64,000 nucleotides of DNA from a virus: the UHGV virus genome UHGV-1370141; one strand, written 5' to 3'. The notes beneath the pieces were generated by a model. It was given only the letters and a program-made list of their open reading frames with translations. It was not told the origin of the DNA and did not search any database. How positions within the stretch are numbered: the stretch's first letter is position 1; the number at the start of each line of letters is the position of its first letter. Shown here one piece after another: positions 22,780 to 62,124 of this stretch. Position numbers and translations under genes: made by a program.

Positions 22780-22850
22780 TTGTGTTTCCTTTTGAGAAAT
22801 TACATTACCCACAAATCAGTATAGCAGCCGCTAGATTTGAGAGTGAAAAC

Positions 22851-27844: not shown

Positions 27845-29803
27845 CTAGCCAGTAACGCCGAATTGATCCCTCATAAACCGCTGAATCTCGAACACCACTC
27901 GAGATAGCTCGAAAAAAACGCGGTCCGGGGAAATCGTTACGATACCACGATACACGCCTTCTTTCTCGCCTTCATCGGCTTTACCACACGCTGGGCAACG
28001 TTGACCCATATACCCGAACACCGCCAGACGGCTACGGTCGTTGTACGTCGCAATAGCGCCTTCGAAGTTAGCCACGTATTTACGATCGGACGACAGTTCT
28101 TCCAGCATCTGGACGATCTTATCGTAATCTTTCTCTACGATAGGTTCTTCGTGGGATTCTTCACCGTCGTAGATTTCTTCCATAACGGTGATAGATTCAA
28201 CCATGTGCGCATAACGGGTTAGACGACGAGCTTCGGCGGTTAAGCGTAAGTGGTCTTCACGCTCACGTTCTGTGCCCTTCTCTGCCAACGCAGAGGTCGT
28301 GGCAGCGTTAGTTTCTTCAATCCAACGTTCGGTGTTGTCGAAGAATTTACCCAAAGTAGAACGACCGAACTTAACGATAATACCGTCTTGTTCGAAAATC
28401 GCTGATGGGTCTTTGATGTGTTCTTCAACGAACTTACGCTGGTCAGCACGGGTGATCGTCGCGTCGTCTTTACCGCGTTGAAGTGCCCACAGATTACGCT
28501 GAATGTCCGTATACAGAGAAGTCCCCATACGGATACAGCGTGCCAGGTTCAGACGAACGTCTTCCTGATGACCGCAACCTTCGTGACCACAAATCAGCGT
28601 CCACGGTAAACCACCTGGGAACTTCGCTTGCATAACGCCGATTAACAGTAACCAGTAGTCAGCAATGTCGATGGTATCCATCAGTACGGTCTTCATGTCG
28701 TTACCTTCGCAGTCTAAGCTGCAATCGGTAACAAACCGTAAAGCGAATTCGATCATGTGACTTAAGTACACACCAGAAGAAGCAGAGAGCATCAGACCGT
28801 AAGTCTGCATCCCAATCTTCGCGGTTTCTAACGCCAGTTCAATATCGAAGTCACAAATCTCGCGCTCCAACGGTGCACGGAAGCCGACGAAGATGCCCGT
28901 GGCAGGCAACCATACCCAGTTAGGAATACCGGATTTACGACGACGGCGCAGGGCTGCAATTGCACCTGTCTGCTGATTGAGACGGGTACTGATCAGACCT
29001 ACCGGTTTATTCATCCCCGGCAACTGTACTCGCTGCTCCCACGCTGTGTCGTCACGCGACAGGGCCACATCGAACGCTTGCAGGTTATTCTGCAAACGCG
29101 GTGGGGACATGTTCAGGGCACGATACAGACGTTCGTACAAATCGCGCTGTTCTTCGGACTTGAACAACATGCGCCCGTCTTTGCTTTTCGGAATACTTGA
29201 GAAGAATTTCTTCAGATCGTTTCCAACCAGGTTCGGGTCCTGGCAAAGACCGATAAGCGTGCCGAAGCTTGCCATTACACTGGCTTCTGAATCCTCTTCC
29301 ATTTCCGAGAACTCTTCGTGAACGGGCTGATCGCCGAAGTTGATACGATCAGTAGAAGCTTTCTCTTTTACTGCGGGTGTCGCTTCTGGTTCGTGATCCG
29401 CCGCTGGTGCATGAGGCTCAGGAGCCGGTGGAACATATTCTTCCCGCGTTTTCTCCGCTACCAGGACAGGTTCCGGTTTACGTTCTTCAACGACCACTTC
29501 TTTACGCTCTACAACTTCAGCAATGACAGGTTGTCCTGTCAGTTCGGTCTGTAGAGATTCAGGAAGGGGTTCTTCTTCGAACGTAGGCGGTTGAAGAATA
29601 GGTTCTTCTTTCACCACGTTCAGTCCTTTGTACGCTTCTTCAGCTTCTGCAAAGGACAGTTGTGGGTTGGCACGTTTAATGGCCATAATCCCATCGTCCG
29701 CTGACATAGTGCTGTAGTCGAGCTCAGGGATGTGAACCTGTACAGGTTCCGTCTGTAGACGACGGCGTCCATTGCCAGGACGTTGGTCTAATGAATCAGA
29801 CAT
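27845..29803 (-). CDS. hypothetical protein (652 aa), E/P-rich low-complexity N-terminal third
   Basis: ORF track. Confidence 0.6.
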   Translation of the reverse strand: MSDSLDQRPGNGRRRLQTEPVQVHIPELDYSTMSADDGIMAIKRANPQLSFAEAEEAYKGLNVVKEEPILQPPTFEEEPLPESLQTELTGQPVIAEVVERKEVVVEERKPEPVLVAEKTREEYVPPAPEPHAPAADHEPEATPAVKEKASTDRINFGDQPVHEEFSEMEEDSEASVMASFGTLIGLCQDPNLVGNDLKKFFSSIPKSKDGRMLFKSEEQRDLYERLYRALNMSPPRLQNNLQAFDVALSRDDTAWEQRVQLPGMNKPVGLISTRLNQQTGAIAALRRRRKSGIPNWVWLPATGIFVGFRAPLEREICDFDIELALETAKIGMQTYGLMLSASSGVYLSHMIEFALRFVTDCSLDCEGNDMKTVLMDTIDIADYWLLLIGVMQAKFPGGLPWTLICGHEGCGHQEDVRLNLARCIRMGTSLYTDIQRNLWALQRGKDDATITRADQRKFVEEHIKDPSAIFEQDGIIVKFGRSTLGKFFDNTERWIEETNAATTSALAEKGTEREREDHLRLTAEARRLTRYAHMVESITVMEEIYDGEESHEEPIVEKDYDKIVQMLEELSSDRKYVANFEGAIATYNDRSRLAVFGYMGQRCPACGKADEGEKEGVYRGIVTISPDRVFFELSRVVFEIQRFMRDQFGVTG

Positions 29804-30439: not shown

Positions 30440-30823
30440 TTAATTGCTATCGTGAGGAACAGCTACCCAACTGTGCCATTTCTCAGAGTATAGTCGATAA
30501 GCCACCTTCGGGTTTTCATCAATATTGCCCGCAGGGTTTTCAGACCACAGCACCCAACTGTAAAGCTCGTAGGACGAGGTATTGCGGATACTGGAGTTAC
30601 GCGTAATGTAATAACATTTACCACGTTGGAAAATCTGCATACCGGCGAAGTGTTCCGTTACCATATAGTAGTGGAACGCTACGGACAATGTTGGATCGGT
30701 ACAGAGTTTATCGACGACGTTTTCGACGTCTGGGTATGCCTTTAAAACCTTTTCGAGAAAACTTGCTAAGTTCAGCCCGGCATACGGTGCTGTTGGCTCG
30801 GTCGGCTGCGGCGGTAGTAACAT
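30440..30823 (-). CDS. hypothetical protein (127 aa)
   Basis: ORF track; 5' part overlaps helicase gene end, true start uncertain. Confidence 0.4.
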   Translation of the reverse strand: MLLPPQPTEPTAPYAGLNLASFLEKVLKAYPDVENVVDKLCTDPTLSVAFHYYMVTEHFAGMQIFQRGKCYYITRNSSIRNTSSYELYSWVLWSENPAGNIDENPKVAYRLYSEKWHSWVAVPHDSN

Positions 30824-32417
30824 TGGTTTTCCTTACAACATACGGTGAAGAGGCTATCTTAAACGACAACACGGAATCACTCAGCGACTTCTGACGCGCA
30901 TTCAAGTAATTGCAGTGTTTCCCTATCGAGAGTGAATGGAATAACCACACAACGGGATCGAGTTCACCCCAATCGTTGTGAAGTATCTTACGCGGACGAC
31001 CGGCCATCTGACGGTTTAACTGCTGGTCTTCCACAGGGGTGGTAATGTACATGTGGACCAACCCCGGTTTGTCAACCGCAGTGCCTGCTTTCCCTGGTGT
31101 TGAAATCGAGAAATCCGCTTGAATAAAGTCGTCATACGAATCCCCCGCGTTGTATTTCGCAACCATCAGCGCGTGGAACTTATCAGACTGTGCCAGTTTC
31201 TCTCGCACGTACTCTGTAAAGAACTCACACATCGCAACGGTTGCAAACAGCACCAACACTTTCTGACCAGGCTGGTAACTCGCCAGATATGTTCGCTCGA
31301 TGACGTCCCACACCATATCCGCGTAAGATAAGTGCATGTTCTCACTTATTAACTTACCTTCGAATAGCTTGTGGTTATACGGCGTCATCTTATTCGCCCA
31401 CCACGCAAACCGTTTATTCTCAATGCTGTAGTACAACGCTTTAACGTGTACAGCAGGAATAATCGGAATGAATATACGTGACTCTTGTGGAAAACGCTCT
31501 CGATACCGTTCGGCTAAAAACGCTTTTGATTCACCCGGCTGTAACGTCGCAGACATCTCAACAGACGGTGGTGGGTTGAGCATTATCCCTGCCATGTATA
31601 CCAGATGAAAATGCACATGCACTTCATCCATTGACAAGAACCCAACGCCTAAAGTGTTGTAGAAATCGTCAATGTTCACTGGGTTAGTTGCGGCAGTGTT
31701 AATGTACTCTTTAAGGAATCGTTGCAACGTTACCGTCGAGATAATGATAACCTTAATCCCACGTTTGTCTAATTCGCCTGATTCCCCCATTTCTAACGCT
31801 TCGTAGATAGCCTGAACGCCTTGGATAACCAAAACGTCGTCTTTCGACTCACGTAAGCCCGTTGGGTCTTCAGTTAAATCAAACATCCATTTTGAGATGT
31901 ACGTCGGACGGTGAATCAGTAGCGTCCTGACACCCTTACGTACCATTACTTTCATGTTCGTTTTCGACTTACCCATCCCTGTACCAATTTCAAAGATGGT
32001 TTGAAAACGATTTGGTTCGCAAGCCGTTTCAACCACAGCGTTCTGGTAAAAGAAACGTGATTTCTCATCGTCCTCTACCATCTTAAAGCCGTAGTTTTCA
32101 AACTTACACCGATAAGGTGTTCCCTGCGTTAAGTAATGCTCGTAAAGCTTATACTCAATGCCAAATTCGGTGGCCGTACGATTAATAATAATGCGTAAAC
32201 GCTCAGAAAAGTTCCTGTGGAAGATAAACGAGCGGAGAGAAGGTATATGCGCGTAATACGGATCGCCACGTTCAGTGAATATACGACCGTAATGCTTGCC
32301 CATCTTAGGAGCGTGCATATGTTCTTCTGCCCACTTAAGTATCGCCGACTCTATCTGTCGGCACGGGACTTCAACCCTCACCCCCATGCTGGTAAAGGTC
32401 ATGTGGAATTCGTACAT
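30708..32417 (-). CDS. SF2 (DEAD/DEAH-box-type) helicase
   Basis: Walker A GTGMGKS, motif II DEVH, motif III SAT, in canonical order. Confidence 0.7.
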   Translation of the reverse strand: MYEFHMTFTSMGVRVEVPCRQIESAILKWAEEHMHAPKMGKHYGRIFTERGDPYYAHIPSLRSFIFHRNFSERLRIIINRTATEFGIEYKLYEHYLTQGTPYRCKFENYGFKMVEDDEKSRFFYQNAVVETACEPNRFQTIFEIGTGMGKSKTNMKVMVRKGVRTLLIHRPTYISKWMFDLTEDPTGLRESKDDVLVIQGVQAIYEALEMGESGELDKRGIKVIIISTVTLQRFLKEYINTAATNPVNIDDFYNTLGVGFLSMDEVHVHFHLVYMAGIMLNPPPSVEMSATLQPGESKAFLAERYRERFPQESRIFIPIIPAVHVKALYYSIENKRFAWWANKMTPYNHKLFEGKLISENMHLSYADMVWDVIERTYLASYQPGQKVLVLFATVAMCEFFTEYVREKLAQSDKFHALMVAKYNAGDSYDDFIQADFSISTPGKAGTAVDKPGLVHMYITTPVEDQQLNRQMAGRPRKILHNDWGELDPVVWLFHSLSIGKHCNYLNARQKSLSDSVLSFKIASSPYVVRKTNVTTAAADRANSTVCRAELSKFSRKGFKGIPRRRKRRR

Positions 32418-32459
32418 GCTCCCCTCTTACAAAAAAAGAGGGGCGCAGGCCCCTCTCGT

Positions 32460-34559
32460 TTACTCAATAATCGTTGCTGCGACAGAATTGTCGTACAACG
32501 AAGCAGGACGTTTACGTGACGTATAGAAACGTACGTTGTCCAAGTTCTTCTGCTGTCCCTCAAACAACAACATCGGGATTGCAGAACGCATCGCAATCAG
32601 TGTATTGTGATCTTCGAAGCGTTTTCCTTCTGCGGCATCGGCATCCTCACTGTCAAACCCTACTGCCGGGAATGGGTTAGTAGGTGACTCAACACGAGAG
32701 ATTGCCAACATAATCGCGATGTGCGTCATCGGAATCCCTTTGAGCTTACGTTGGATATATTTGAACACGTAGAACAACGCATGAGTACATTGTTTTTCCG
32801 TGGCACCACGCATCTGAACGAGGGTAATCGGTTTAACCTTACCACTCTTCTTGCTCAAACGCATTGACTCGTCCGAGAACTGTTCGAAGTTATCTGACTT
32901 GTCCGATGCTACCGAACGTAAAATCAATTCCAACCCTGCTACAAACTCCGCCATAGATTCAGACCGATTCGTATAAATTAGGATCGGCCAGGACGGTTTC
33001 CATCCTTTTAGCGGAACACGCACCGTTTTCTTGCTGGGGAATACGAGCTTATCACGATTCTTCAAGAAGAAGCGAAGGAACGACTTAGAGAAGTTACCGC
33101 AGACGCCCATTCGAACGTCAATCGGATCTTCTGCCAGGATGTTCCCTTCTGCATCTAAACGAACAAACGTAAGGTCATTAATTTCCGGGAGTGCCGTTTC
33201 ATCAATATCGTCCAGGTCTTCATGATACGCAATCTGGCTAATCTCTGAATAGACTTCATCCGAAATTACCAGTTGGTATTCATCCCAGGTACCGTATTGC
33301 GGCTTCTCCAGTAAACTAATCCCTTTAACGGAGTTGTGCTTATACTCCGTGAGATAATCACGCATTCTTGGCGACAAGACCAAGTTCAGCAGATAACGCA
33401 GGAAGTCAAGGTGTTTCGTCGACAGAATACCTTGAGTGCCCTTTTCTGAAATTGCGGTTGACGCAAGGTGACCCGGTGATGTGCCAGGTGACAGGTTATA
33501 AATCAAGTCACCCATACACGTTGCACAGATAGTCTGTCGTGACATCCCTTTGCAACACATCGCGGTACGGAACTCGATAGGTTTGTTCAAGACTTTCTCA
33601 AACTCACCGTCTTCGAATCGTAACCACGGACCACCAGTACCTTCGAAGCGATAACGCATTCCTTTCATCGCTTTGAATTTCGCTTCTTCCAACGGCGAAT
33701 TCGTAAAGGTGTGTCTGTGTACGTGATGTGTACCACAGTCTTCGTAATCGAAGAACATCAGCACGTTAGCCGCTAACTGCAACTTACGCGATGCGTACTC
33801 TGCGTCTGCAATCTTGTCGGTATTATACAGGTGAGAACGCGATGTCGCACCTGCTTCTTTCAGTCGACTGATAACAGAATGCAAGCCGGTGAAGAAACCT
33901 TCCCATACCTGGTTAGAGTACACACGGGAGTCAATCTCTGAAGTCTTACCACGAATGTAAGCCTGGAGAATCTGATCCATTTTCAGTGTGCGGTCTAACA
34001 CAGACATGACAACTGGGTTGTTTGAGAGTCTCGGATCTTTAAAGATTTTCTCAATGAGTTGATAGGCTTCTTCTACCTTATCGTTACCTTCCTCATCGTA
34101 ACCCGTCGGATAGAGTTTAGACCATTCGATAATCAGCTTGAAGTTTTCATGCTGATAAATCTCCATCATCGTATCGTAGTCAATGGTAACACAATACGAC
34201 AACAGGTTTTTCACCGTCAGGTTAAACGCGTTTGCATAAACGTGCTGCGATAACAGGTAACGGGTATCGGCCAGATCCACTCCGGCCTTACGTGCTGCTA
34301 CAGCTGCCAACGACATAAAGCGCAGATGCGCATCGTCAGTTGCCGTGTCGCCATGCTTATACGCCATGTTCGACGAGATTGGCACTTGGGGATAAAACTG
34401 GGTTAATCCCCAATACGGCCAGCTCAACTTAATGTGTCGACCAGACATTCTCAACGTGACCCCATCGTCGAAGGACACGTCGTAAACGCCCCGAAGTAGC
34501 CACACCTGATCCGAATTCAACTTGCACAAGTCTCTTACGTGAACCGGAGTCGCCTTCAT
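32460..34559 (-). CDS. RNA polymerase beta'-like subunit, C-terminal module
   Basis: CATCMGDL ... ASTAISEKGTQGILSTKH resembles bacterial RpoC CAHCYGRDL ... AAQSIGEPGTQLTMRTFH (recalled). Confidence 0.7.
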   Translation of the reverse strand: MKATPVHVRDLCKLNSDQVWLLRGVYDVSFDDGVTLRMSGRHIKLSWPYWGLTQFYPQVPISSNMAYKHGDTATDDAHLRFMSLAAVAARKAGVDLADTRYLLSQHVYANAFNLTVKNLLSYCVTIDYDTMMEIYQHENFKLIIEWSKLYPTGYDEEGNDKVEEAYQLIEKIFKDPRLSNNPVVMSVLDRTLKMDQILQAYIRGKTSEIDSRVYSNQVWEGFFTGLHSVISRLKEAGATSRSHLYNTDKIADAEYASRKLQLAANVLMFFDYEDCGTHHVHRHTFTNSPLEEAKFKAMKGMRYRFEGTGGPWLRFEDGEFEKVLNKPIEFRTAMCCKGMSRQTICATCMGDLIYNLSPGTSPGHLASTAISEKGTQGILSTKHLDFLRYLLNLVLSPRMRDYLTEYKHNSVKGISLLEKPQYGTWDEYQLVISDEVYSEISQIAYHEDLDDIDETALPEINDLTFVRLDAEGNILAEDPIDVRMGVCGNFSKSFLRFFLKNRDKLVFPSKKTVRVPLKGWKPSWPILIYTNRSESMAEFVAGLELILRSVASDKSDNFEQFSDESMRLSKKSGKVKPITLVQMRGATEKQCTHALFYVFKYIQRKLKGIPMTHIAIMLAISRVESPTNPFPAVGFDSEDADAAEGKRFEDHNTLIAMRSAIPMLLFEGQQKNLDNVRFYTSRKRPASLYDNSVAATIIE

Positions 34560-36799
34560 TATTCTTCGCCCCTTTTCATTTTCACCAATTCAAACCCTTC
34601 ACAGCTGTGAATGTTTTTCATCATTCTGTCAATCTGCGAATCTCCTAATGGGAGCTTATTCCGGTCTACCAGTACGCCCGGATTGGAAGGAGTTTGAGAT
34701 CGGTACAGCCCTACTAAAATCTCTCGATGCACAGCAGGGTTATTTGCCCTATCGTGAACCTCTTCGTAGTTACCTGGACCATAACCCGCTAATAGTCGTT
34801 CTTCCGAAGGACCAGCCCATTTCAGCGTTTTATAGTTTACCGGATACGAACCACGTCCTTGGTTAGACGCATCAATCGTGCCCAGGTAGTTCAGGTACAT
34901 CGACGAAATACTTGAGAATTCACGTCCCGTTTTATCAAGCCGTAATGTTTCTACACCACCCACGTAAAACTCGTCTTTTGTCCATTCCTGTTTACCATCG
35001 TAATTGGTAATAAGCAGTTTCGACTTACGGGGTTTAAACTCACCTAAACGTTCACTGATTTCCACCGGAGTGTCATCAAGTTCGTGAGGTAAGTAAATGC
35101 GGATGGTGAAATCGTAAATCTCTTTAAAGAGTTCTCGCTGCAAATCCTCCGTAGGATGCGTAGCCTGTAACGTGTTCGCCCATTCTGGATTATAGCGTGA
35201 AAGGTAGTCCATCAGGATTTCCCAACACTCGCCAATACGCCCTTCATCCAGCATCGGTTTAAGACGCATCTTCAGTTGTTCAGATGCTGCTGACCAATAC
35301 ATGTGGAACAGCGCGGCGTAAGTAGAACGACGAATTACGGCGTTCATTGAACGTAGTACGTGAACACGTTCGCCGAACTCGTTAATTGGCATCTGTTCAA
35401 CTGGCAGTACACGACCCACAATCCCTTTCGTACCCGAACGGTCGGTAATCTTAGAAGACACCGTCACCGGGATCGGATAACGTACCGCGATACGAATTGT
35501 GTACGTGTTGATAGGATCGCTTAATCCACGCTGAACAGGTGAAGTCAGTTTAGAGATAATCTGTTGACTTACGTTCTCTTTACCGTATTCGCCGCGACGA
35601 ATTGCATCTTCAATCACTCCGCGAATTTCTTCACGAAACTCTGCGTAGACTTCGTACGTTTCAGATGCGAAAGCTTTCTCCAGCAACACACACGCTTTGG
35701 GAGACCAGATAACGTTTTTATCTCTCGACACGGAGAAATAGAAGCGAACAATCGCATTGTAGTAGTCCTTTAACGCCAATGCGTATTTGTCAAGCTCACG
35801 TTTGTTCTCTTCAGTACAGTTAATGTTATTCGTTCCATTACCGCATGACGTTTCATCACGCCAAACCTGAATATCAACAATGCGTGTTCCGCTACGTTCC
35901 ATCAGTTCGTGGTTGTTTTCCAAACGTGCTTTATAGTGTATCGGATCGGCATCCACGTAATCACAGTTATCGAAGAACGGAGAAACGTGTTGGGTTTCTC
36001 CTAAGGTTGCATCGATCGCTGCGTACAGGTCATCGAAACGACGAGAAGCGATAACTAACCCGTCATCACGAATCGCTTCACCCACGTCTGGGAAATAGCG
36101 CGGTACACGATTCCCCTCGGGATCGTTATAGCCGTAGGTATCCAGCAAGAATTCATCTTCACGTAAGGTTTTCTCAATAACTTTCAACCCATACCCGTGA
36201 AGCTTCTGTGCCGCTTCTTCGGAAATCGTGTAGGAATCTTCGATAATGTCTGGATGTGAAATGGTAACCGTTGGCAGCACCGCACTGTCTGCGAATTCAC
36301 CATCCACCATGCACGGCATTGTCGTCAGGATTTCATCCTTTTCTAACTGGTCGGTTTCACCACGTAACAAACTGCGCAGTTTTGGCGATTCCCATTTCTC
36401 GGAAGAGAACACGTTATCGTGATTAGTATAAAAGTTAATCTCGATAACATCTATCATTGTTTTGCCCGGAATACGGCATTCTGCACGACGGAAGAATATC
36501 GCGTGTTCCAGCGCACGGGAATCCCCACGACGGCCATAACGGGTAAACGTTGCGCGACGTTGTCTACCTTCCTTAGTTGTGTAATGACAGATGCTCCCAC
36601 TGTCTTCCACAATATCGTTAAACAGAAAATCGTGGTAATTGGTATCTGCTCCCGTAAAGTGAGGTGACGGCTCAGGATGATCAATCGGCACCGAGGACTT
36701 CATATGGTTACCTACCATCGATGCCCTTGCACCTGACACCTGTGCGATATTAACTTCACGGTCAGCGACGCTGCTCAATAGCTCAACTGGCGTTTTCAT
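34559..36799 (-). CDS. RNA polymerase beta-like subunit, C-terminal module
   Basis: SKITDRSGTKGIVGRVLPVEQMP resembles RpoB [24 protein letters not shown] (recalled); RBS AACCTAAAGGAG. Confidence 0.7.
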   Translation of the reverse strand: MKTPVELLSSVADREVNIAQVSGARASMVGNHMKSSVPIDHPEPSPHFTGADTNYHDFLFNDIVEDSGSICHYTTKEGRQRRATFTRYGRRGDSRALEHAIFFRRAECRIPGKTMIDVIEINFYTNHDNVFSSEKWESPKLRSLLRGETDQLEKDEILTTMPCMVDGEFADSAVLPTVTISHPDIIEDSYTISEEAAQKLHGYGLKVIEKTLREDEFLLDTYGYNDPEGNRVPRYFPDVGEAIRDDGLVIASRRFDDLYAAIDATLGETQHVSPFFDNCDYVDADPIHYKARLENNHELMERSGTRIVDIQVWRDETSCGNGTNNINCTEENKRELDKYALALKDYYNAIVRFYFSVSRDKNVIWSPKACVLLEKAFASETYEVYAEFREEIRGVIEDAIRRGEYGKENVSQQIISKLTSPVQRGLSDPINTYTIRIAVRYPIPVTVSSKITDRSGTKGIVGRVLPVEQMPINEFGERVHVLRSMNAVIRRSTYAALFHMYWSAASEQLKMRLKPMLDEGRIGECWEILMDYLSRYNPEWANTLQATHPTEDLQRELFKEIYDFTIRIYLPHELDDTPVEISERLGEFKPRKSKLLITNYDGKQEWTKDEFYVGGVETLRLDKTGREFSSISSMYLNYLGTIDASNQGRGSYPVNYKTLKWAGPSEERLLAGYGPGNYEEVHDRANNPAVHREILVGLYRSQTPSNPGVLVDRNKLPLGDSQIDRMMKNIHSCEGFELVKMKRGEE

Positions 36800-36828: not shown

Positions 36829-36844
36829 GATAATATCTATCTCA
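36829..36844 (-). promoter_or_regulatory. AT-rich promoter-like motif (class 2)
   Basis: plus-strand ATAATATCTATCTC ~30 nt upstream of the 36799 start; same core at 58186, 60572, 50513. Confidence 0.4.
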
Positions 36845-36862: not shown

Positions 36863-37186
36863 ATGCTTGAAGATTTTATTACCCTAAAAGAAATCATACC
36901 TGCGCCCTATACCAGCACCTGGAAAGTGCTGCACGATTACACAGATTTTCTGCGTAAACACCCACAAACTAAAGTAGAAACTGTAGACCCACGATTCAGT
37001 TATCCTGAGATTCACAATTTCTACGCTTATTGCAAACTGAAAGGTTATGCCGAAAACATCATCTACCCGATGATGCTACTCAATAACTTGGAAGACCCTA
37101 TGAACTTCACCCCTGAGATTACAGAGCTGATAGTTCCAGATGCCGGGGTCGTCGCCAGTATTCTTAGCACCATCGTAGACGATTAA
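36863..37186 (+). CDS. hypothetical protein (107 aa)
   Basis: ORF track; followed by bidirectional terminator. Confidence 0.5.
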   Translation: MLEDFITLKEIIPAPYTSTWKVLHDYTDFLRKHPQTKVETVDPRFSYPEIHNFYAYCKLKGYAENIIYPMMLLNNLEDPMNFTPEITELIVPDAGVVASILSTIVDD

Positions 37187-37221: not shown

Positions 37222-38601
37222 CTAGTACGAGCTCTTAAACGGACTCGTAGAAGCACTAGCAAATGGGTTGCTTGTACTACTACCAAATCCGCTAGACGAA
37301 CCAAACTGAGGCTGGCTGCCGAAAGAGCTGCCTCCGAATGATGAACCCCCGCCAAAAGAGTGCCCGCCACCAAACGTATTCGACAGCGAGTTCGGTTGAC
37401 CGAATCCACCTACGTCACCAAAACCGCTGTTCTTACGCTCGCCACCGAAAGCATCTACTACAGAAATCCGTCCTACCATTCCTGTACCAGCCAGGTTAGT
37501 TGTGTTGTGTTCTTCCACAAAACGCTGCATTGCTGGAGAAAGATTACCGAAGCTGTTCGTTGGAGTCATCCGTTGCTTACGCGCACGGAAGAACTCTACC
37601 GGATCGTCCAGGTTCGGCTTATCCGCATCAGACGCCTTCTTCGTCGGGATCTGTTCCGTTGCCGACGATCTGTCAATTCTGAACTCACGGGCACTGGTAT
37701 CACGCTCAGGATTGTCTGAACGTGGACCGGTGTTATACGGTAAGGTCTGGATGACATTATCGTAAATCTCCATGTTGTCCAGCTGTGAAATCCATTCATC
37801 GTCCAACGGGCGCAGTGGTGTGTGGTCACGTAGCCCTTTCACTACGTTATTGTAGTTTACCACGTACTGTGCCCAACCGCGTGCTAACGACCCGAAGTAC
37901 GGACGGGAATCGTTAGAACCGGTGACACTTGGATACCAACCGAACACAGTAGTCAGCAGGCGATGAATAATCACCTTATCCTGTTTACGTTGAAGCTTCA
38001 CCGAGAAGTACATTGCAGTACCGTCTAAGGATTCTTCTTCGAACATATGGCGATAATTAGCCACACGGTTAAACTTCACACCGTCGATAACTAAATCAGA
38101 TGCAATAAAGAGCTGGGTAACTTTGTGCTTTTTATCGCGCTCCAATAAGCCATAAACGTATTGTTTAACTGCTTCCCAGGATTTTACCAAACGATCGTCA
38201 AACGTCGGATCTTTCATCCCTTCACAAATCTGTTCCGTTAAGAACTTCTTGTACGCCGCAGAACGAATTGCTTTACCACTGGCAGCCGTTTCCAGAATAG
38301 CGTCAATCAACGCAAAGGAACGAATGAACAAATTCGCATTGATAGATTTCTTCAAGAAACGGATGGTGCCCGATTCACCGGCCAGCACAGATTCACAGAG
38401 AGGATGGAATGCCTGACATTCACGTCCATCGTCATCTTCCATTCCTTTCTTAATCATTGCCGACGTTGGAAGCGCCAGGCGGCGCTTCACTTTGTTGTAG
38501 GTAAATTCTGCTGGCTCACCGTCATCACGGGTAAGCAAATCGTTCTCGAAATCGAATCCTTGTGATTTAAGAAACGATTTATAGAATTCAATAATTTTCA
38601 T
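37222..38601 (-). CDS. hypothetical protein with ~90-aa C-terminal FG/SFG-repeat tail
   Basis: C-terminus GFGDVGGFGQ...FGGGHSFGGGSSFGGSSFGSQPQFGSSSGFGSS. Confidence 0.65.
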   Translation of the reverse strand: MKIIEFYKSFLKSQGFDFENDLLTRDDGEPAEFTYNKVKRRLALPTSAMIKKGMEDDDGRECQAFHPLCESVLAGESGTIRFLKKSINANLFIRSFALIDAILETAASGKAIRSAAYKKFLTEQICEGMKDPTFDDRLVKSWEAVKQYVYGLLERDKKHKVTQLFIASDLVIDGVKFNRVANYRHMFEEESLDGTAMYFSVKLQRKQDKVIIHRLLTTVFGWYPSVTGSNDSRPYFGSLARGWAQYVVNYNNVVKGLRDHTPLRPLDDEWISQLDNMEIYDNVIQTLPYNTGPRSDNPERDTSAREFRIDRSSATEQIPTKKASDADKPNLDDPVEFFRARKQRMTPTNSFGNLSPAMQRFVEEHNTTNLAGTGMVGRISVVDAFGGERKNSGFGDVGGFGQPNSLSNTFGGGHSFGGGSSFGGSSFGSQPQFGSSSGFGSSTSNPFASASTSPFKSSY

Positions 38602-38622: not shown

Positions 38623-40326
38623 TTACTCGCCGAAAGCGCCGAATACACCGCCTGCGGTGGAAATGTTGTCAGGAGCACCAAAGCTACCGAAAGAACCGAA
38701 GCTATTGGTAGGCGCAGCCGCTGCCGTAGGAATGTTGGACAGGATATTAGTCCGGTTTTGTCCACGGTTGAATTCCTGATAACCTTCTTCTACTTTGTTC
38801 ATCAGCTGTGCCGTTTCAACAGCCAACTGATTGGTGTAGTTAAGGTCAGTTGTCACCCCACTGTGGATACGCGCTTTCATGAACGATGCGAAAGTGTAAT
38901 ACTCAGGCATCTCACCATCGAGTTCAATCTCAATGCGCGTTACCACACCAACGATACAAGTTACTGTCATGCAGCAACGGATACGGTTGTGTTTGGTCAC
39001 TTGTAGCATCAAACCTTGGAGATCGCTCATGAAACGACGTGCTAATACATCCGGCAAACCTTCGTCTGTTAATGCACCGAGAGTGTGGTGAGCAACTTGC
39101 AGCATCGGTTGTGTGGAAATATCCGCCATGCGGTTATCGTAGAAGAAGGTAATCTCACCAATCAAGTTACGGGACACGATTGGGCCGAGTACCATCGCCA
39201 AATCAAACGCAACCAGAGAACCTTGGGTAGAATAGTTATTACGTCCTACCCAATCGTCGGTACGTTCAATCTCACCGAAACCACGGCGGTCAGCTACCGC
39301 TAGAGATTGCGAAATCGCAATATCCAAATCTTGCGGGTTCATGATTGCGTTACGCAAATCAGCTAACTTAAACGCTGCGCGGTTGACTGCGTTCCAACCA
39401 CCAGACACATCCGACGTCGCGTTCGTTAACGCGGCACGGAAAGCACGGATCAGTTCGTAGTTATTGAAATTGCGCATTACCCCGATTTGGTTCAGCTCAG
39501 ATTCCACGCCAAGAGAATGGTCACCTGCAAAGAAGCTGTCTACCGTGCTCAGCTCTGTTTCAATCCCCATCGTGTTGATGAAAGAATTCGCAATCGCTGT
39601 AACAAAAGACTCAGGACGAGTCAGTTGACCAGACATCAGCTGCGGCGCGGATTGACAGTTCGCAGAGATAACCGTTTGGTCATCGTAAGTGAACTTCTCA
39701 CCTGCGTTAATCAGATTACGAATCGTGGATGCTGCTTTTGCAGTAGAGATTGCATCGATGGTGTGTTCACTGTAGCTATCTACTGTCAGAGTTTTAGACA
39801 GCACGTAGTTATCAACCAGACGGAAAGAATCTGGGTTGATACGACGTCCCCCGAACGCATCGGTAATGTACGTACACTGCAAGCCGTAGATTTCATTGAT
39901 GTATAACACCATGTCATCTGGCAGGTGGTTAAATACGGAACGCTCTGCCTGGGAGGTATAACCCGAGACGACATAACGGGTTTCCTGCGTACGACTTTCG
40001 TTAATCACGTTACCTACGATAATCGCAACGAAGTTATACACGCCAGTGTCACGGGAATTATACTGGAATTGTACCGGACGAGATTCATCATCGCTTACGT
40101 TAATCAGCGGAGTTTCAACGCCGGTCGGAGTATTATCAAACCCTACAATCTGCCCTAACGCTTCTTGATAATCTCGAGTCTTGGTCGCATTCTCGCCGTG
40201 TTGCGCCACAACGTTTACGAGTTCATCTAAAGCGTACTTAGATTCAAAGAACCCAATACGACGACGAATCTGTTTAGGAATTTCGTACACTGGGTTGATT
40301 TGAAGCTTTAGAAGTTTCATTGCCAT
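38623..40326 (-). CDS. hypothetical protein with C-terminal SFG-repeat tail
   Basis: C-terminus SFGSFGSFGAPDNISTAGGVFGAFGE; RBS CTAAAGGAGTATTTA. Confidence 0.65.
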   Translation of the reverse strand: MAMKLLKLQINPVYEIPKQIRRRIGFFESKYALDELVNVVAQHGENATKTRDYQEALGQIVGFDNTPTGVETPLINVSDDESRPVQFQYNSRDTGVYNFVAIIVGNVINESRTQETRYVVSGYTSQAERSVFNHLPDDMVLYINEIYGLQCTYITDAFGGRRINPDSFRLVDNYVLSKTLTVDSYSEHTIDAISTAKAASTIRNLINAGEKFTYDDQTVISANCQSAPQLMSGQLTRPESFVTAIANSFINTMGIETELSTVDSFFAGDHSLGVESELNQIGVMRNFNNYELIRAFRAALTNATSDVSGGWNAVNRAAFKLADLRNAIMNPQDLDIAISQSLAVADRRGFGEIERTDDWVGRNNYSTQGSLVAFDLAMVLGPIVSRNLIGEITFFYDNRMADISTQPMLQVAHHTLGALTDEGLPDVLARRFMSDLQGLMLQVTKHNRIRCCMTVTCIVGVVTRIEIELDGEMPEYYTFASFMKARIHSGVTTDLNYTNQLAVETAQLMNKVEEGYQEFNRGQNRTNILSNIPTAAAAPTNSFGSFGSFGAPDNISTAGGVFGAFGE

Positions 40327-40359: not shown

Positions 40360-42021
40360 TTACTGATTAAACCACGCCACTTCTTCACATTTCTTCCTGT
40401 TCTGAATTAACAGGAATTCTGCTAACATGTTCTGAAGTCGTGGGTGTGGTGTGTAGCCTAACATCACTTCTCCACTCCGAAGCATTCTTGCTGCTTCAGG
40501 TGTTGCCCTGAGATTGAAGTTAAACGGCGCAATATGTTCACGTACCAACAACGTCAAAGACGTCTTCAATGTTGACTGTTCGTAGATATTGCGATTGGTA
40601 CGGTATGCCTGAGGATAAAATCTATCCGATTTTATTTTGATCTCATTATCAATAGGTTCGATTGGATAACCCCCATTGTTGGGATCTAAAACCATTTCAC
40701 AGCTTAGCAACTGTGCAATCTCATGCATTCCGTAGTAGATATAAATCGCTTGTGCGATCCCCATTGCATTCTTAAACGCAGCAGCGTCAATGTCCTTATA
40801 GGTTCTGCGGTCAGCAAAGCGATGCAGTGCGGCTGCAACCAACCACTCGTACAGTTCGTAGAACGGATATTGATGATTCAGGTGAATAGAATCAATCAGT
40901 ACCTTAGCATCCGCAGGAGCGATATCGATCCCTAAGGAACGAACCACACGACGATAATCGTTGAAAAACTCTTGGGTACGAACAAACTCTTTCATCGGCG
41001 CTTTAGAGCGCGCTTGAACCAAGTCTATCGCACAAGTTTTCCCTTTCTCACCGTTAAACATAATCTTTTCAGGATGCGCTTTTAAGATGACGTTCTGTGA
41101 CGAAATCTTTCCTGCAAATCCTGTTTCGATTTCCTGCTTGATATTAAAGTACATCCCTGCAACGATGTTGTTCTCCACCATCGTACCTGGAGGTAACTCT
41201 GCGCCGATGAGTTTCATGGCGATTAAGCGAATCACCGCGAATGCCATGATGTACTCTTCCACCATATCCGTACCGTAACCACAGATAGAGGCCAGCACCG
41301 TTAAGTTCGCACTGTTCGGTCCTTTATTGCCACCGTCCTGTACTTTCGAAATCACCGACACTAAGAAGTCCCGCAATTTACTGATTGCAGGTAGTTGTGC
41401 TATCTCGGTGTCGTAAAGCAATTCCATGCAATGGGTTAAGTTATAAACGCTTTTCCGCTTGGAGTCCACAGCGGCGCGTGTTGTTGGGAAAGCATCCATG
41501 ACCAAGAATACCGGAATGAACGGTTTTACCATCAACGACAGTATGACCAGTTCGTAGTAGTCTTGTACGATATACGTCATCTCTTTCGGATAGTTAGATG
41601 ACATTTCTTCGTAAGTTTCGTGGACGTTTTGAGGAATCCACACGGAGCTTTGTGGATAGAGTTGGCGGAATCTGTCCGCGTGGTGGAATTTGGCAATTTG
41701 TGCAACAATCTCTGGCGCATGTTTACGAATCGTTTCGGGTTCTTCATTACCCAGCATTTCTAACTCTTCGTACGCCGAGAATAATTCTTCCTTTTCCTCC
41801 GACGTTAACGTTGACCAATAACGTTCGATTTCCATGAACATAATTTTGTCATGGGTAACCACTTTGCCGGAGCTATCGCGTACGTCTGGCACATTCGCAT
41901 CTTTGCGTCCATTACGGAATCCGTTAAACCCTACTTCCTTATCACCGTAACTAATAATGAGACGGTCGCGATTTTTCTCAATACGCATTTTAAAATCTCC
42001 AGGGATAACATAGTCGACCAC
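40360..42021 (-). CDS. hypothetical protein (553 aa)
   Basis: ORF track; GTG start. Confidence 0.6.
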   Translation of the reverse strand: MVDYVIPGDFKMRIEKNRDRLIISYGDKEVGFNGFRNGRKDANVPDVRDSSGKVVTHDKIMFMEIERYWSTLTSEEKEELFSAYEELEMLGNEEPETIRKHAPEIVAQIAKFHHADRFRQLYPQSSVWIPQNVHETYEEMSSNYPKEMTYIVQDYYELVILSLMVKPFIPVFLVMDAFPTTRAAVDSKRKSVYNLTHCMELLYDTEIAQLPAISKLRDFLVSVISKVQDGGNKGPNSANLTVLASICGYGTDMVEEYIMAFAVIRLIAMKLIGAELPPGTMVENNIVAGMYFNIKQEIETGFAGKISSQNVILKAHPEKIMFNGEKGKTCAIDLVQARSKAPMKEFVRTQEFFNDYRRVVRSLGIDIAPADAKVLIDSIHLNHQYPFYELYEWLVAAALHRFADRRTYKDIDAAAFKNAMGIAQAIYIYYGMHEIAQLLSCEMVLDPNNGGYPIEPIDNEIKIKSDRFYPQAYRTNRNIYEQSTLKTSLTLLVREHIAPFNFNLRATPEAARMLRSGEVMLGYTPHPRLQNMLAEFLLIQNRKKCEEVAWFNQ

Positions 42022-42121
42022 AAAGATAAAATCTATCTAAGATAACTTCGACTGTGTTCTGCACACATACACGATAAGAAGCCCCAGGATTCCCTGGGGC
42101 TGAATTATTGTTTTACGTTAA

Positions 42122-42763
42122 TTAGATAATGTCGTCAAAACTGCTGTCTGGTGCGGGTGCTTTTGTTGCCTGTTGGTTGTAACCACCGCCGTTATTGTTG
42201 CTATTATAGCCGCCACGACCGTAGCTACCGCCACCAGTGTTGTTGAACTCGCGAGGTTTATAGTTGTCACGGAAATCTTCCAGGAAGATATCAGCATTCT
42301 TAATAAACGCACGCAGAGTACGTTCTGCCAGTTCTAAATCAGAAACCTGTTGGCCATTACGGAAAACACGATAACCTTTCGGATAGGTGAAGTAGAATTT
42401 CTTCTGGCGTGCGCCAGCTCCTGGGATCTCACCACTGATAGCCATGAACGGCGTCAGGTTTTCATCGCGGCCTACGTGCAAGCTAACTGGCGATTTCTTC
42501 CCTTTAGCATCTTCCCATTTGTGAACGATTTTCTCTGCCTTAACCAACACGGTGCGCAGCGTTTCGAAAATGTCCACACAAACGGTATAGCCAGCAGTAA
42601 AATACAAACCTTCGCCTTTACCGAAAGAATAGCTGAACTTCATCAGCTCAACGTCACCGTTGAATTCGTTAAGCTCGATACCCAGTTTACGGGTACGTCC
42701 CTGCTGATCTGGTTCGGTTTGCGGGTAAAGATATTTTTCTTTAAAGAAGTTTTTGTTAACCAT
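42122..42763 (-). CDS. SSB-like protein candidate
   Basis: Gly/Asn-rich linker followed by acidic C-terminal tip ...PAPDSSFDDII, reminiscent of the SSB C-terminal tail; N-terminal fold not verified. Confidence 0.4.
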   Translation of the reverse strand: MVNKNFFKEKYLYPQTEPDQQGRTRKLGIELNEFNGDVELMKFSYSFGKGEGLYFTAGYTVCVDIFETLRTVLVKAEKIVHKWEDAKGKKSPVSLHVGRDENLTPFMAISGEIPGAGARQKKFYFTYPKGYRVFRNGQQVSDLELAERTLRAFIKNADIFLEDFRDNYKPREFNNTGGGSYGRGGYNSNNNGGGYNQQATKAPAPDSSFDDII

Positions 42764-61388: not shown

Positions 61389-62041
61389 TTCTGTTACCTC
61401 GTTCTGTTACTACTACTCGTTCTGTTGTACGTCGCTATACCCCGACGTGTGGGTTAATGGGACGCGTTGAACGTCTGTTGAGGCGCAGCAGGCAGTGGCA
61501 GCAATGACAGCAAGGGCAGCAATGGTACAAACGCCAACGCGAATAAAAAACGCTACTGTCACTGAACACAGCTTCAGAATACTGACAATAACGCAAAAAG
61601 GGTGTCGCTAACGGGTGTCGAGCCCCAGCCTCGGTGTGTAGCCACGTCACCAGGCATAGCGACAAAGTTCGGTACTGGTCAAACACAGCATGACATGGGA
61701 CGATGAAGGTTTACAGGTGATCATCGACCAGTACCGTCGAGTTAACACGTAACTCTCAATTCACATTACAGGGTATTCACGTTACACTTAGGGGAAATAC
61801 CCAATAATTAAATTCTTGGTGGGTGCAGGTGGGAGGTTTTATCCTCCCACCGTACAACCGTTTAGGTGGTCTAACCACCAGGGTCTCACGACCCTAACGT
61901 AAGTCCGAACTTAATCGGTAGGTGTTTACACGTTTTTAAGGAGCTTTCTACCCGTGAGCAAGAGCAGAAGTTATCAGAACAACCGACGCTCAGTTGAAGG
62001 CTGACGAGTTTGTAACTCTTGTTCGATTGCTCTAATCTGGG

Positions 62042-62114: not shown

Positions 62115-62124
62115 TCTAAATCCA

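What the first reader, a model, noticed from the sequence alone, without database searches (positions are those of the whole stretch)
32460..36799. Adjacent genes for split RNAP beta-C and beta'-C modules next to an SF2 helicase
Two consecutive minus-strand genes carry the RpoB C-terminal active-site-region motif (SGTKGIVGRVLPVEQMP) and the RpoC C-terminal Zn/trigger-loop region (CATCMGDL...SEKGTQGILSTKH). Together with the separate beta' N-terminal gene at 46499..48456 this indicates a phage-encoded multisubunit RNAP split into modules, typical of phiKZ-like jumbo phages. Whether these belong to the virion or the non-virion enzyme cannot be decided from sequence alone.
Basis: partly seen in the sequence, partly recalled or inferred. 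Interest (0 to 1): 0.55.

Follow-up and report, generated by a model that had tools for sequence, protein, structure and literature searches.

The report
Jumbo-phage non-virion RNA polymerase genes
These two adjacent genes encode the C-terminal halves of the beta and beta-prime subunits of the second ("non-virion") RNA polymerase that phiKZ-like, nucleus-forming giant phages make after infection; this is an ordinary, conserved core feature of that phage family.

Summary
ORFs 34559..36799(-) (746 aa) and 32460..34559(-) (699 aa) exist, carry the quoted motifs and overlap by one base (TAATG).

It can. Both proteins are collinear orthologues (70-77% identity) of SPN3US gp34/gp35 and Asesino gp51/gp52. 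Their best solved-structure matches are phiKZ non-virion RNAP chains gp71-73 and gp74 (E 3e-30, 7e-33). They show no similarity to SPN3US virion RNAP subunits.

Catalytic residues are invariant across the families: beta K450/K458; beta-prime bridge helix, four Zn cysteines, trigger-loop LSTKH.

The block Imp6, gp68-like fifth subunit, Imp1, gp70, betaC, beta'C, SF2 helicase is syntenic with phiKZ gp67-75 and RAY gp243-250.

A conserved early-promoter-like motif lies upstream of the pair and a conserved terminator hairpin lies downstream.

The "beta'N gene" is not one ORF. A 350-nt ORF-less group I intron (46739..47088) splits it, and splicing restores NADFDGD. phiKZ gp55 has an intron 3 nt away.

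The phage matches the described "Bapsvirus" lineage found in Salmonella, E. coli and Shigella assemblies.

Verdict: a new member of a known kind, of low interest.

The parts
34559..36799 (-). nvRNAP beta C-terminal module (746 aa). It is the orthologue of phiKZ gp71-73, SPN3US gp34, Asesino gp51 and RAY gp248. It contains the beta double-psi beta-barrel lysines K450 and K458.
   Evidence: aa 450-519 align to E. coli beta 1065-1134; gapless alignment, 70-76.5% identity. K450, D453, G456 and K458 are invariant in 17 sequences down to 22% identity..
32460..34559 (-). nvRNAP beta' C-terminal module (699 aa). It is the orthologue of phiKZ gp74, SPN3US gp35, Asesino gp52 and RAY gp249. It carries the bridge helix (about aa 235-270), Zn ligands C275/C336/C345/C348 and the trigger loop at aa 371-385. 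Its start codon overlaps the betaC stop codon by 1 nt (TAATG).
   Evidence: aa 196-384 align to E. coli beta' 736-937.; invariant residues..
36830..36842 (-). Early (virion-RNAP type) promoter-like motif AGATAGATATTAT, 30 nt upstream of the betaC ATG. A GGAG Shine-Dalgarno sequence follows it.
   Evidence: 11 matches in the window against 1.19 expected, none of 100 shuffles reaching 11.; identical motif at the same position upstream of SPN3US gp34 and Asesino gp51. It matches the published jumbo-phage early promoter motifs (PMC7058600 Table 2; PMC7598289).
32436..32457 (-). Intrinsic-terminator-like hairpin plus T-run directly after the beta'C stop codon. It bounds a two-gene transcription unit.
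   Evidence: conserved in SPN3US and Asesino.
30708..32417 (-). SF2 helicase (569 aa). It is the orthologue of phiKZ gp75, SPN3US gp36, Asesino gp53 and RAY gp250 (a non-virion, nucleus-localised SF2 helicase).
   Evidence: phrog_16, E 3e-50; phiKZ gp75, E 3e-28.. PMC10299810. Pfam hits only sub-threshold, and only in orthologues.
47089..48456 (-). nvRNAP beta' N-terminal module, exon 1. It has a GTG start and ends ...IKAPNA (gcU).
   Evidence: phiKZ gp55, E 6e-38; the tblastn HSP to SPN3US gp23 ends exactly at 47089..
46739..47088 (-). Group I intron, 350 nt, with no ORF longer than 21 aa. The 5' splice site follows U47089, which pairs U.G with G47081 in P1. The 3' splice site follows G46739.
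   Evidence: Rfam RF00028, 63.7 bits against a cut-off of 50.; intron-plus JN03 and EC001 compared with intron-less SPN3US, and P1 covariation..
46499..46738 (-). nvRNAP beta' N-terminal module, exon 2. It begins DFDGDQ. The spliced product is 535 aa and contains NADFDGD.
40360..41988 (-). Homologue of phiKZ gp68, the sigma-like fifth subunit of nvRNAP (542 aa from the ATG at 41988). It has its own early-promoter-like motif at 42026..42038.
   Evidence: phrog_3209; phiKZ gp68 is in the same PHROG. E 2.5e-9. PDB 7OGP_B, E 7.8e-10.. SPN3US gp30, 54% identity.

Best explanation
The two genes encode the beta C-terminal and beta' C-terminal modules of the non-virion multisubunit RNA polymerase (nvRNAP) of a Chimalliviridae jumbo phage, a Seoulvirus/Erskinevirus relative that fits the proposed genus 'Bapsvirus'. 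Shown here: orthology, synteny, intact catalytic residues, conserved flanking promoter-like and terminator-like signals, and the intron with its splice junctions. Inferred from phiKZ, AR9, SPN3US and RAY work: the injected virion RNAP transcribes the two-gene unit early from the AGATAGATATTAT-type promoter, and the 1-nt TAATG overlap couples translation of the two proteins. They then assemble with the beta'N module (made from a spliced mRNA, supplying NADFDGD for Mg2+), the betaN module (encoded outside this window) and the gp68-like sigma-like subunit into a five-subunit enzyme lacking alpha and omega. That enzyme transcribes middle and late phage genes inside the chimallin-enclosed phage nucleus, independently of host RNAP. 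In this complex the betaC module supplies the second double-psi beta-barrel (K450/K458), the flap and part of the clamp. The beta'C module supplies the bridge helix, trigger loop, Zn domain and the C-terminal clamp hinge.
For: PHROG RNAP families hit at E 6e-254 and 8e-222. The best PDB hits are phiKZ nvRNAP 7OGP chain C (gp71-73, E 3e-30) and chain D (gp74, E 7e-33), followed by AR9 nvRNAP 7S00. Local blastp against SPN3US gives gp34 at 1100 bits and gp35 at 1080 bits, while all five virion RNAP subunits score E 0.2 or worse. Against phiKZ only gp71/gp73 and gp74 are hit; the window's other beta'-like gene (25203..26504) hits virion subunit gp80 instead. Alignments to SPN3US and Asesino orthologues are near-gapless. 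The residues aligning to E. coli beta K1065/K1073, and the beta' bridge helix, Zn ligands and trigger loop, are conserved and invariant in family alignments. The residue roles are as in the phiKZ structure paper (PMC8287921). Synteny with phiKZ gp54-gp80, SPN3US gp22-gp42, Asesino gp39-gp59 and RAY gp243-gp250 is conserved. A gp68 homologue is present. SPN3US gp35 is named the nvRNAP beta' subunit, and gp42, gp218, gp240, gp241 and gp244 are the proteomically confirmed virion subunits (PMC5105663). GFP fusions of RAY gp248 and gp249 localise in the phage nucleus (PMC10299810). The early-promoter-like motif and terminator hairpin are conserved at the same positions in relatives.
Against: There are no expression, proteomic or biochemical data for this phage, so timing, assembly and localisation are transferred from relatives. 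The betaN module is absent from the 64-kb window, so the full enzyme is not demonstrated here. Pfam finds nothing in the beta'C protein and only one marginal domain in betaC (25.2 bits against a 23.4 cut-off). Promoter and terminator calls are consensus matches. Splicing of the beta'N intron is predicted, not shown, and long-read RNA-seq of phiKZ did not detect splicing of its analogous introns under the conditions used (PMC10914365).
Confidence: 0.93

Rival explanations
1. The two proteins are modules of the virion-packaged RNAP (vRNAP), which is injected with the DNA and transcribes early genes.
For: Both enzymes are split beta/beta' homologues, and a genuine vRNAP module gene lies only 6 kb away in the same window (25203..26504; 72% identical to SPN3US gp42).
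Against: There is no significant similarity to any SPN3US vRNAP subunit (best E 0.23). The phiKZ hits are gp71/73 and gp74, not gp80. The PDB best hits are nvRNAP chains. In vRNAP the beta' C-terminal region is split into two proteins (gp42 plus gp244), whereas this 699-aa protein is a single C-terminal module collinear with SPN3US gp35, which carries the a17-a20 region (PMC5105663). An early-promoter-like motif upstream fits an enzyme made after infection.
Confidence: 0.03
2. The genes are decaying or catalytically inactive RNAP paralogues (pseudo-enzymes), or an artificially split single gene caused by a sequencing frameshift.
For: Pfam barely recognises them, and sequence identity to cellular RNAP is only about 24-25% over short stretches.
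Against: The ORFs are full length and collinear with orthologues in Salmonella, Erwinia and Pseudomonas phages. Catalytic lysines, Zn cysteines, bridge helix and the trigger-loop His are invariant across the families. The same TAATG-type junction between a beta-type and a beta'-type protein occurs in SPN3US and Asesino. An identical protein is found on seven independent contigs, and its 90%-identity cluster has 245 members.
Confidence: 0.02
3. The sequence is host (bacterial) or plasmid RNAP-like DNA rather than phage, because identical proteins are deposited under Salmonella, E. coli and Shigella genome assemblies.
For: NCBI names the identical protein 'hypothetical protein [Salmonella enterica serovar Chester]'.
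Against: The carrying contigs are 210-239 kb stand-alone contigs. The window is syntenic gene-for-gene with jumbo phages. Such contigs are described as lytic jumbo-phage genomes co-assembled with isolates; the proposed 'Bapsvirus' comprises 247 genomes of about 220-249 kb (PMC12768965).
Confidence: 0.01

Closest known systems
phiKZ non-virion RNAP subunits gp71-73 (betaC) and gp74 (beta'C), PDB 7OGP/7OGR
   Same: Same gene order, with the gp75 helicase next. Same module boundaries. Same catalytic elements: K386/K394 correspond to K450/K458; Zn C288/C341/C350/C353 correspond to C275/C336/C345/C348; bridge helix and trigger loop are shared. The gp68 fifth-subunit gene lies upstream in both (PMC8287921).
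   Different: Only about 20-26% identical. The phiKZ betaC gene is interrupted by a group I intron carrying endonuclease gp72, whereas the gene here is uninterrupted. The phiKZ beta'N intron carries endonuclease gp56 and sits 3 nt upstream of the insertion site here, and the intron here has no ORF.
Salmonella phage SPN3US gp34/gp35 (Seoulvirus) and Erwinia phage Asesino gp51/gp52 (Erskinevirus)
   Same: Collinear orthologues at 70-77% amino-acid identity. They share the 1-nt stop/start overlap, the identical AGATAGATATTATC motif upstream, the terminator hairpin downstream and the helicase next door.
   Different: About 71% nucleotide identity, which is genus-level divergence. The beta'N genes of SPN3US and Asesino (gp23, gp40) lack the intron.
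Erwinia phage RAY gp248/gp249/gp250
   Same: The same three-gene block. GFP fusions of all three proteins localise inside the phage nucleus (PMC10299810).
   Different: About 22% identity.
Bacillus phage AR9 non-virion RNAP (PDB 7S00)
   Same: Second-best solved-structure hit for both proteins (E 1e-15 and 6e-4). It is also a split beta/beta' enzyme with a fifth promoter-specificity subunit (PMC7598289).
   Different: AR9 has a uracil-DNA genome, forms no phage nucleus, and recognises the template strand of U-containing promoters.
Bacterial RNAP beta and beta' (E. coli RpoB/RpoC), and the cyanobacterial split beta'
   Same: The beta DPBB lysine motif, and the beta' bridge helix, Zn site and trigger loop, align directly. 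The beta' split site after the DPBB coincides with the cyanobacterial split (PMC7598289).
   Different: Beta is also split. There are no alpha or omega subunits. A gp68-like protein replaces sigma and the assembly platform. Divergence is so great that Pfam RpoC models do not hit.

Membership tests
Multisubunit RNAP beta subunit, C-terminal (DPBB) module | Rpb2 domain 6 / beta DPBB region recognisable by profile | tested here: met
   Pfam PF00562 scores 25.2 bits against a cut-off of 23.4, aa 402-508. Bacterial beta chains are hit in the PDB at E 2e-5 to 8e-3.
Multisubunit RNAP beta subunit, C-terminal (DPBB) module | Two conserved lysines of the beta DPBB (E. coli K1065/K1073; phiKZ K386/K394) | tested here: met
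   K450 and K458 align to them and are invariant in 17 family members.
Multisubunit RNAP beta' subunit, C-terminal module | Bridge helix, Cys4 Zn site and trigger loop with catalytic His | tested here: met
   aa 196-384 align to E. coli beta' 736-937. C275, C336, C345 and C348, LSTKH379-383, and E254/R258/K259/Q261/L262 are invariant in window, SPN3US, Asesino, phiKZ and RAY.
   0 Pfam families at E up to 0.1. Homology instead rests on PHROG 3015 (E 8e-222), PDB phiKZ gp74 (E 7e-33) and the E. coli alignment.
Chimalliviridae non-virion RNAP (phiKZ gp55/gp68/gp71-73/gp74/gp123 type) | Orthology to nvRNAP subunits and not to vRNAP subunits | tested here: met
   nv subunits score 1100 and 1080 bits, and v subunits score E 0.2 or worse.
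Chimalliviridae non-virion RNAP (phiKZ gp55/gp68/gp71-73/gp74/gp123 type) | Conserved gene neighbourhood (gp67-gp75 block; chimallin locus next to beta'N) | tested here: met
   Shared PHROGs 3284, 3209, 3141 and 3520, and blastp hits in order. The same order occurs in SPN3US, Asesino and RAY.
Chimalliviridae non-virion RNAP (phiKZ gp55/gp68/gp71-73/gp74/gp123 type) | Fifth, sigma-like subunit (gp68 homologue) encoded | tested here: met
   40360..41988: PDB 7OGP_B at E 7.8e-10; phrog_3209 is shared with phiKZ gp68.
Chimalliviridae non-virion RNAP (phiKZ gp55/gp68/gp71-73/gp74/gp123 type) | beta'N module with the NADFDGD Mg-binding motif | tested here: met
   Present only after removal of the 350-nt intron. 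The spliced 535-aa product reads ...IKAPNADFDGDQ....
Chimalliviridae non-virion RNAP (phiKZ gp55/gp68/gp71-73/gp74/gp123 type) | betaN module (phiKZ gp123 / SPN3US gp77 homologue) | tested here: inconclusive
   tblastn of SPN3US gp77 finds nothing in the 64-kb window. In SPN3US that gene lies about 40 kb from gp35, so it is expected outside the window.
Chimalliviridae non-virion RNAP (phiKZ gp55/gp68/gp71-73/gp74/gp123 type) | Absent from virions; made early; active on middle/late promoters in the phage nucleus | not testable with these tools
   Only indirect evidence: a conserved early-promoter-like motif upstream, and localisation and proteomic data from RAY and SPN3US (PMC10299810, PMC5105663).
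Jumbo-phage virion RNAP | Similarity to virion subunits (SPN3US gp241, gp218, gp240, gp42, gp244) | tested here: not met
   Best E 0.23. The true gp42 orthologue is a different gene, 25203..26504.
SF2 helicase (neighbouring gene) | Motifs I, II (DExH), III, V, VI and a two-RecA-lobe fold | tested here: met
   Invariant G147/G149/K150, D264/E265/H267, S289-A-T291, T440..D449 and Q470..R474..R476. AF2 pLDDT is 85.8. Foldseek top hits are UvsW (1e-12), XPB and Snf2/Rad54. Pfam is sub-threshold only.
Group I intron (in the beta'N gene) | Catalytic core matching RF00028; U.G at the 5' splice site; terminal G; in-frame exon ligation | tested here: met
   63.7 bits against a cut-off of 50. U47089.G47081 pair in P1, and G46739 precedes exon 2. 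NADFDGD is restored. Intron-less alleles in SPN3US and Asesino define the same junction. Actual splicing was not tested.

The most novel reading that the evidence does not exclude
The betaC, beta'C and SF2-helicase block, invariant in order from phiKZ to RAY to this phage, could be a functional unit. The nucleus-localised UvsW/XPB-like translocase might work with the non-virion RNAP. It could open promoters as XPB does in TFIIH, which would help explain how phiKZ-type late promoters with only a TATG consensus are used, or it could clear R-loops behind the polymerase as UvsW does. A second, smaller possibility: the ORF-less group I intron sitting on the NADFDGD codons makes active nvRNAP depend on RNA splicing and marks intron-mediated competition among Seoulvirus and Bapsvirus phages sharing hosts.
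Probability: 0.15. Interest if true: 0.5.

Novelty: new member of a known kind. Interest (0 to 1): 0.15.

Why it matters
It matters little for discovery. The split two-enzyme transcription system of phiKZ-like phages has been known since about 2002-2015 and solved structurally since 2021, and this pair is a routine orthologue.

There are three practical gains:
- The identical proteins sit in NCBI as 'hypothetical protein' under Salmonella, E. coli and Shigella assemblies and can now be annotated as nvRNAP betaC and beta'C.
- The beta'N gene of this lineage, and of several deposited Seoulvirus genomes where it is annotated as two genes or as 'hypothetical', should be annotated as one intron-containing gene.
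- The conserved AGATAGATATTAT motif gives a ready early-promoter model for the Seoulvirus, Erskinevirus and Bapsvirus group.

Tried and rejected
- Pfam on both RNAP proteins gave only one marginal hit, so I moved to PHROG, PDB and direct alignments.
- An early reading from the phmmer alignment suggested the second DPBB lysine was replaced by Arg. Re-reading against the phiKZ numbering and E. coli showed that K450 and K458 are the conserved pair, so I rejected it.
- I took the Rfam end of the intron (46787) as a candidate 3' splice site. It would insert 16 extra residues before DFDGD, so I rejected it. The site after G46739 restores NADFDGD and matches the intron-less alleles.
- I tested the RapA-like (RNAP-recycling Snf2) idea for the helicase by fold search. 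The top hits are UvsW and XPB, then generic Snf2/RecQ/DEAD, and RapA is not in the top 50, so there is no specific support.
- PDB sequence searches for the helicase and for the 612-aa protein at the chimallin position returned nothing useful. The 612-aa protein falls in a different PHROG (8316) from phiKZ chimallin (4795), so its chimallin identity rests on position only.
- PDB searches with 25203..26504 and 27845..29803 returned nothing.
- Sigma-70 promoter scanning found fewer sites than shuffled controls (23 against 28.5), consistent with independence from host RNAP.
- There are no tandem repeats in 30-50 kb.
- I did not run structure predictions of the two RNAP proteins, because near-full-length sequence matches to solved phiKZ chains made them unnecessary.

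Full report
**Observation**

The minus strand carries two ORFs, 34559..36799 (746 aa) and 32460..34559 (699 aa).
- The quoted peptides are present at aa 455-471 of the first protein and at aa 345-352 and 371-383 of the second.
- The first gene has a GGAG Shine-Dalgarno sequence 8 nt before its ATG.
- Its TAA stop overlaps the ATG of the second gene by one base (TAATG).
- No tandem repeats or other embedded features were found.
- The plus-strand ORFs inside the region are short and have no support.

**What the proteins are**

- Pfam recognises only RNA_pol_Rpb2_6 in the 746-aa protein (25.2 bits, cut-off 23.4) and nothing in the 699-aa protein.
- PHROG profiles place them in two jumbo-phage 'RNA polymerase beta subunit' families at E 6e-254 and 8e-222.
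- Against all PDB sequences, the best hits are chains C and D of the phiKZ non-virion RNAP. These are gp71-73 (E 3e-30) and gp74 (E 7e-33, aligned over residues 7-556). AR9 non-virion RNAP comes next, and for the first protein bacterial beta subunits follow.
- Direct BLASTP aligns aa 450-519 of the first protein with E. coli beta 1065-1134. It aligns aa 196-384 of the second with E. coli beta' 736-937.
- Using the residue roles given for phiKZ (PMC8287921), K450 and K458 are the two DPBB lysines. C275, C336, C345 and C348 are the Zn ligands. SEKGTQGILSTKH is the trigger loop, and the segment around E254-A264 is the bridge helix.
- These residues are invariant in a 17-member betaC alignment reaching 22% identity. 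They are also invariant in a five-phage beta'C alignment of window, SPN3US, Asesino, phiKZ and RAY.

**Virion or non-virion**

It can.
- The window is 71% identical in DNA to Erwinia phages Asesino, Stratton and phiEaH2 and to SPN3US-like Salmonella phages.
- The two proteins align almost without gaps to Asesino gp51/gp52 (76.5% and 74.6%) and to SPN3US gp34/gp35 (70% and 73%).
- In SPN3US, gp35 is the nvRNAP beta' C-terminal subunit and gp77 is the nvRNAP beta N-terminal fragment. The virion enzyme consists of gp241, gp218, gp240, gp42 and gp244, which were identified by virion mass spectrometry (PMC5105663).
- A local BLAST of the window proteins against all of these gave 1100 and 1080 bits to gp34 and gp35. 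Nothing better than E 0.23 was found to any virion subunit.
- Against phiKZ gp54-gp82 the two proteins hit only gp71/gp73 and gp74. A different window gene (25203..26504, 433 aa) hits virion subunit gp80 and SPN3US gp42.
- The window therefore holds three of the four beta/beta' modules of nvRNAP and one module of vRNAP. The focal pair belongs to nvRNAP.

**Neighbourhood**

Gene order is conserved with phiKZ gp54-gp80, SPN3US gp22-gp42, Asesino gp39-gp59 and RAY gp243-gp250. Shared PHROG families and BLAST hits identify the following genes:

| Window coordinates | Identity |
|---|---|
| 42122..42763 | phiKZ gp67 (Imp6) homologue |
| 40360..41988 | gp68, the sigma-like fifth nvRNAP subunit (PDB 7OGP_B, E 7.8e-10) |
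| 38623..40326 | gp69 (Imp1, nuclear import factor) |
| 37222..38601 | gp70 |
| 36863..37186 (+) | small divergent gene |
| 34559..36799 | betaC |
| 32460..34559 | beta'C |
| 30708..32417 | gp75-type helicase |

- In RAY the corresponding gp248, gp249 and gp250 ('non-virion superfamily 2 helicase') all localise inside the phage nucleus (PMC10299810).
- The helicase has invariant SF2 motifs I, II (DEvH), III, V and VI.
- Its AlphaFold model is confident (pLDDT 85.8). The closest solved folds are T4 UvsW, XPB and Snf2/Rad54 ATPases.
- Pfam hits (ResIII, DEAD, Helicase_C) are only sub-threshold and only in orthologues.

**Expression signals**

- The 63-nt spacer upstream of betaC contains AGATAGATATTAT (36830..36842).
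- With up to two mismatches this pattern occurs 11 times in the window against 1.19 expected. Most copies lie in intergenic DNA upstream of minus-strand genes, including the gp68-like gene and the gene in the chimallin position.
- It matches the published early (virion-RNAP) promoter motifs of jumbo phages: phiKZ TATATTAC and OBP/N1M2 ...RRYAKATATTATYWWADTG (PMC7058600; PMC7598289).
- The motif is identical at the same position upstream of SPN3US gp34 and Asesino gp51. RAY has CTATATTATC there.
- A GC-rich hairpin with a T-run follows the beta'C stop codon (32436..32457). It is conserved in SPN3US and Asesino.
- Sigma-70-like sites are not enriched.
- The pair thus looks like a two-gene early transcription unit read by the injected vRNAP. 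This fits an enzyme that must be made after infection. It is a consensus-level inference.

**The beta'N gene is interrupted**

Rfam finds a group I intron between them (RF00028, 63.7 bits, E 8e-14).
- Exon 1 ends ...IKAPNA (gcU). U47089 pairs with G47081 in P1. Exon 2 starts at 46738 (GAU UUC...) after G46739.
- Ligation gives NADFDGD in a 535-aa product, compared with 531 aa for SPN3US gp23 and 533 aa for Asesino gp40, both of which lack the intron.
- The tblastn match of gp23 ends exactly at 47089.
- The same ORF-less intron, about 70% identical, sits at the same codon junction in Salmonella phage JN03 and E. coli phage EC001. Related introns hit at the corresponding part of the beta'N locus in Proteus phage 7, Raoultella phage VB_ZK_P1 and Klebsiella phage phiKp_32, though I did not map their splice junctions.
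- In JN03 the exon ends GGU and the guide sequence reads GCC. Here the exon ends GCU and the guide reads GGC. This is a compensatory change that supports the P1 pairing.
- phiKZ gp55 is interrupted 3 nt upstream by an intron carrying endonuclease gp56. The published DFDGD417-421 numbering requires that splice (PMC8287921).
- Introns in phiKZ-type RNAP genes have been predicted since the genome paper (cited in PMC10914365). That transcriptome study did not detect their splicing.

**Source of the window**

- A 100% identical betaC protein is deposited as 'hypothetical protein' from a Salmonella Chester assembly. Its 90% cluster has 245 members from Salmonella, E. coli and Shigella assemblies, on contigs of 210-239 kb.
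- This fits the proposed Chimalliviridae genus 'Bapsvirus' (247 genomes of about 220-249 kb, syntenic with Seoulvirus), found as lytic phage genomes inside bacterial isolate assemblies (PMC12768965).

**Mechanism and verdict**

Orthology, intact catalytic residues, synteny and flanking signals are shown here. Early synthesis by vRNAP, translational coupling, assembly and nuclear localisation are inferred from relatives. On that reading, the two proteins assemble with spliced beta'N, betaN (outside the window) and the gp68-like subunit into a five-subunit enzyme without alpha or omega, which transcribes middle and late genes inside the phage nucleus.

Rivals are poorly supported: virion enzyme, decayed paralogues, host DNA.

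The finding is real, correctly recognised in outline and resolvable to the non-virion enzyme, and it is ordinary. It is a new member of a well-described kind. Its main value is better annotation of this lineage, including the intron-containing beta'N gene.

Noticed in passing
window 46739..47088 (-): A 350-nt ORF-less group I intron splits the nvRNAP beta'N gene immediately before the DFDGD codons. The same intron is at the same junction in JN03 and EC001, where the gene is annotated as two genes or as one truncated gene. Related introns occur at the corresponding locus in Proteus phage 7, Raoultella VB_ZK_P1 and Klebsiella phiKp_32, but their junctions were not mapped. The intron is absent from SPN3US and Asesino. 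phiKZ gp55 has an endonuclease-bearing intron 3 nt away.
   Followed up: yes
window 25203..26504 (-): A gene for a virion-RNAP beta' fragment (433 aa; 72% identical to SPN3US gp42; phiKZ gp80 at E 3e-46) lies 6 kb from the nvRNAP pair. Both polymerases are therefore represented in the window.
   Followed up: yes
window 40360..42021 (-): Homologue of phiKZ gp68, the sigma-like fifth nvRNAP subunit. The mechanical GTG start at 42021 sits 4 nt after a promoter-like motif. The likely true start is the ATG at 41988, which has a GGAG Shine-Dalgarno sequence.
   Followed up: yes
window 37222..38601 (-) and 38623..40326 (-): The homologues of phiKZ gp70 and of Imp1/gp69 (phage-nucleus protein import factor) end in FG-rich low-complexity tails (GFG/SFG repeats; 9 and 5 FG dipeptides) reminiscent of FG-nucleoporins. 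The same tails are LG/GGL-rich in SPN3US and Asesino, and M/Q/P-rich in phiKZ gp70 and RAY gp245. This is unexplained.
   Followed up: partly
window 1789, 9578, 36830, 42026, 50514, 58189, 60574 (all -): A repeated AGATAGATATTAT / AGATATATATTAC motif, often followed by GTG 4-5 nt later, lies in intergenic DNA (11 hits against 1.2 expected). It matches published jumbo-phage early promoter consensus sequences and is a candidate vRNAP promoter set for this lineage.
   Followed up: partly
whole window; L005-L008: Identical genes occur on 210-239 kb contigs in Salmonella, E. coli and Shigella isolate assemblies, where they are named 'hypothetical protein'. This fits the proposed genus 'Bapsvirus' of lytic jumbo phages carried in bacterial assemblies (PMC12768965).
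   Followed up: partly
window 48545..50383 (-): A 612-aa protein sits in the chimallin position, between a DNA polymerase gene and beta'N. It falls in PHROG 8316 rather than the phiKZ 'nuclear shell protein' PHROG 4795, and it has no PDB sequence hit. Its identity as the nuclear shell protein rests on position only.
   Followed up: partly
window 30708..32417 (-), relatives P0103-P0168: Many orthologues of the SF2 helicase in related phages are about 910 aa and carry an intein with LAGLIDADG / Hom_end domains (PF14528, PF05203, PF05204). The copy here (569 aa) has no intein.
   Followed up: no
window 62040..62116 (-): A single tRNA gene, called tRNA-Ile with the unusual anticodon AAT by ARAGORN (Rfam tRNA, 40.1 bits).
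   Followed up: no
window 51774..54071 (-) and 22737..24632 (+): Two separate DNA-polymerase-family genes (PHROG 2927 and 3011) lie here. They correspond to the split DNA polymerase subunits noted for SPN3US (gp18 and gp44).
   Followed up: no
L011 (Proteus phage 7) 1..400: In Proteus phage 7 the sequence upstream of the intron core differs from the other intron-bearing phages, and an unrelated 'hypothetical' CDS ends there. This may be an extra insertion in or before the intron's 5' part.
   Followed up: no
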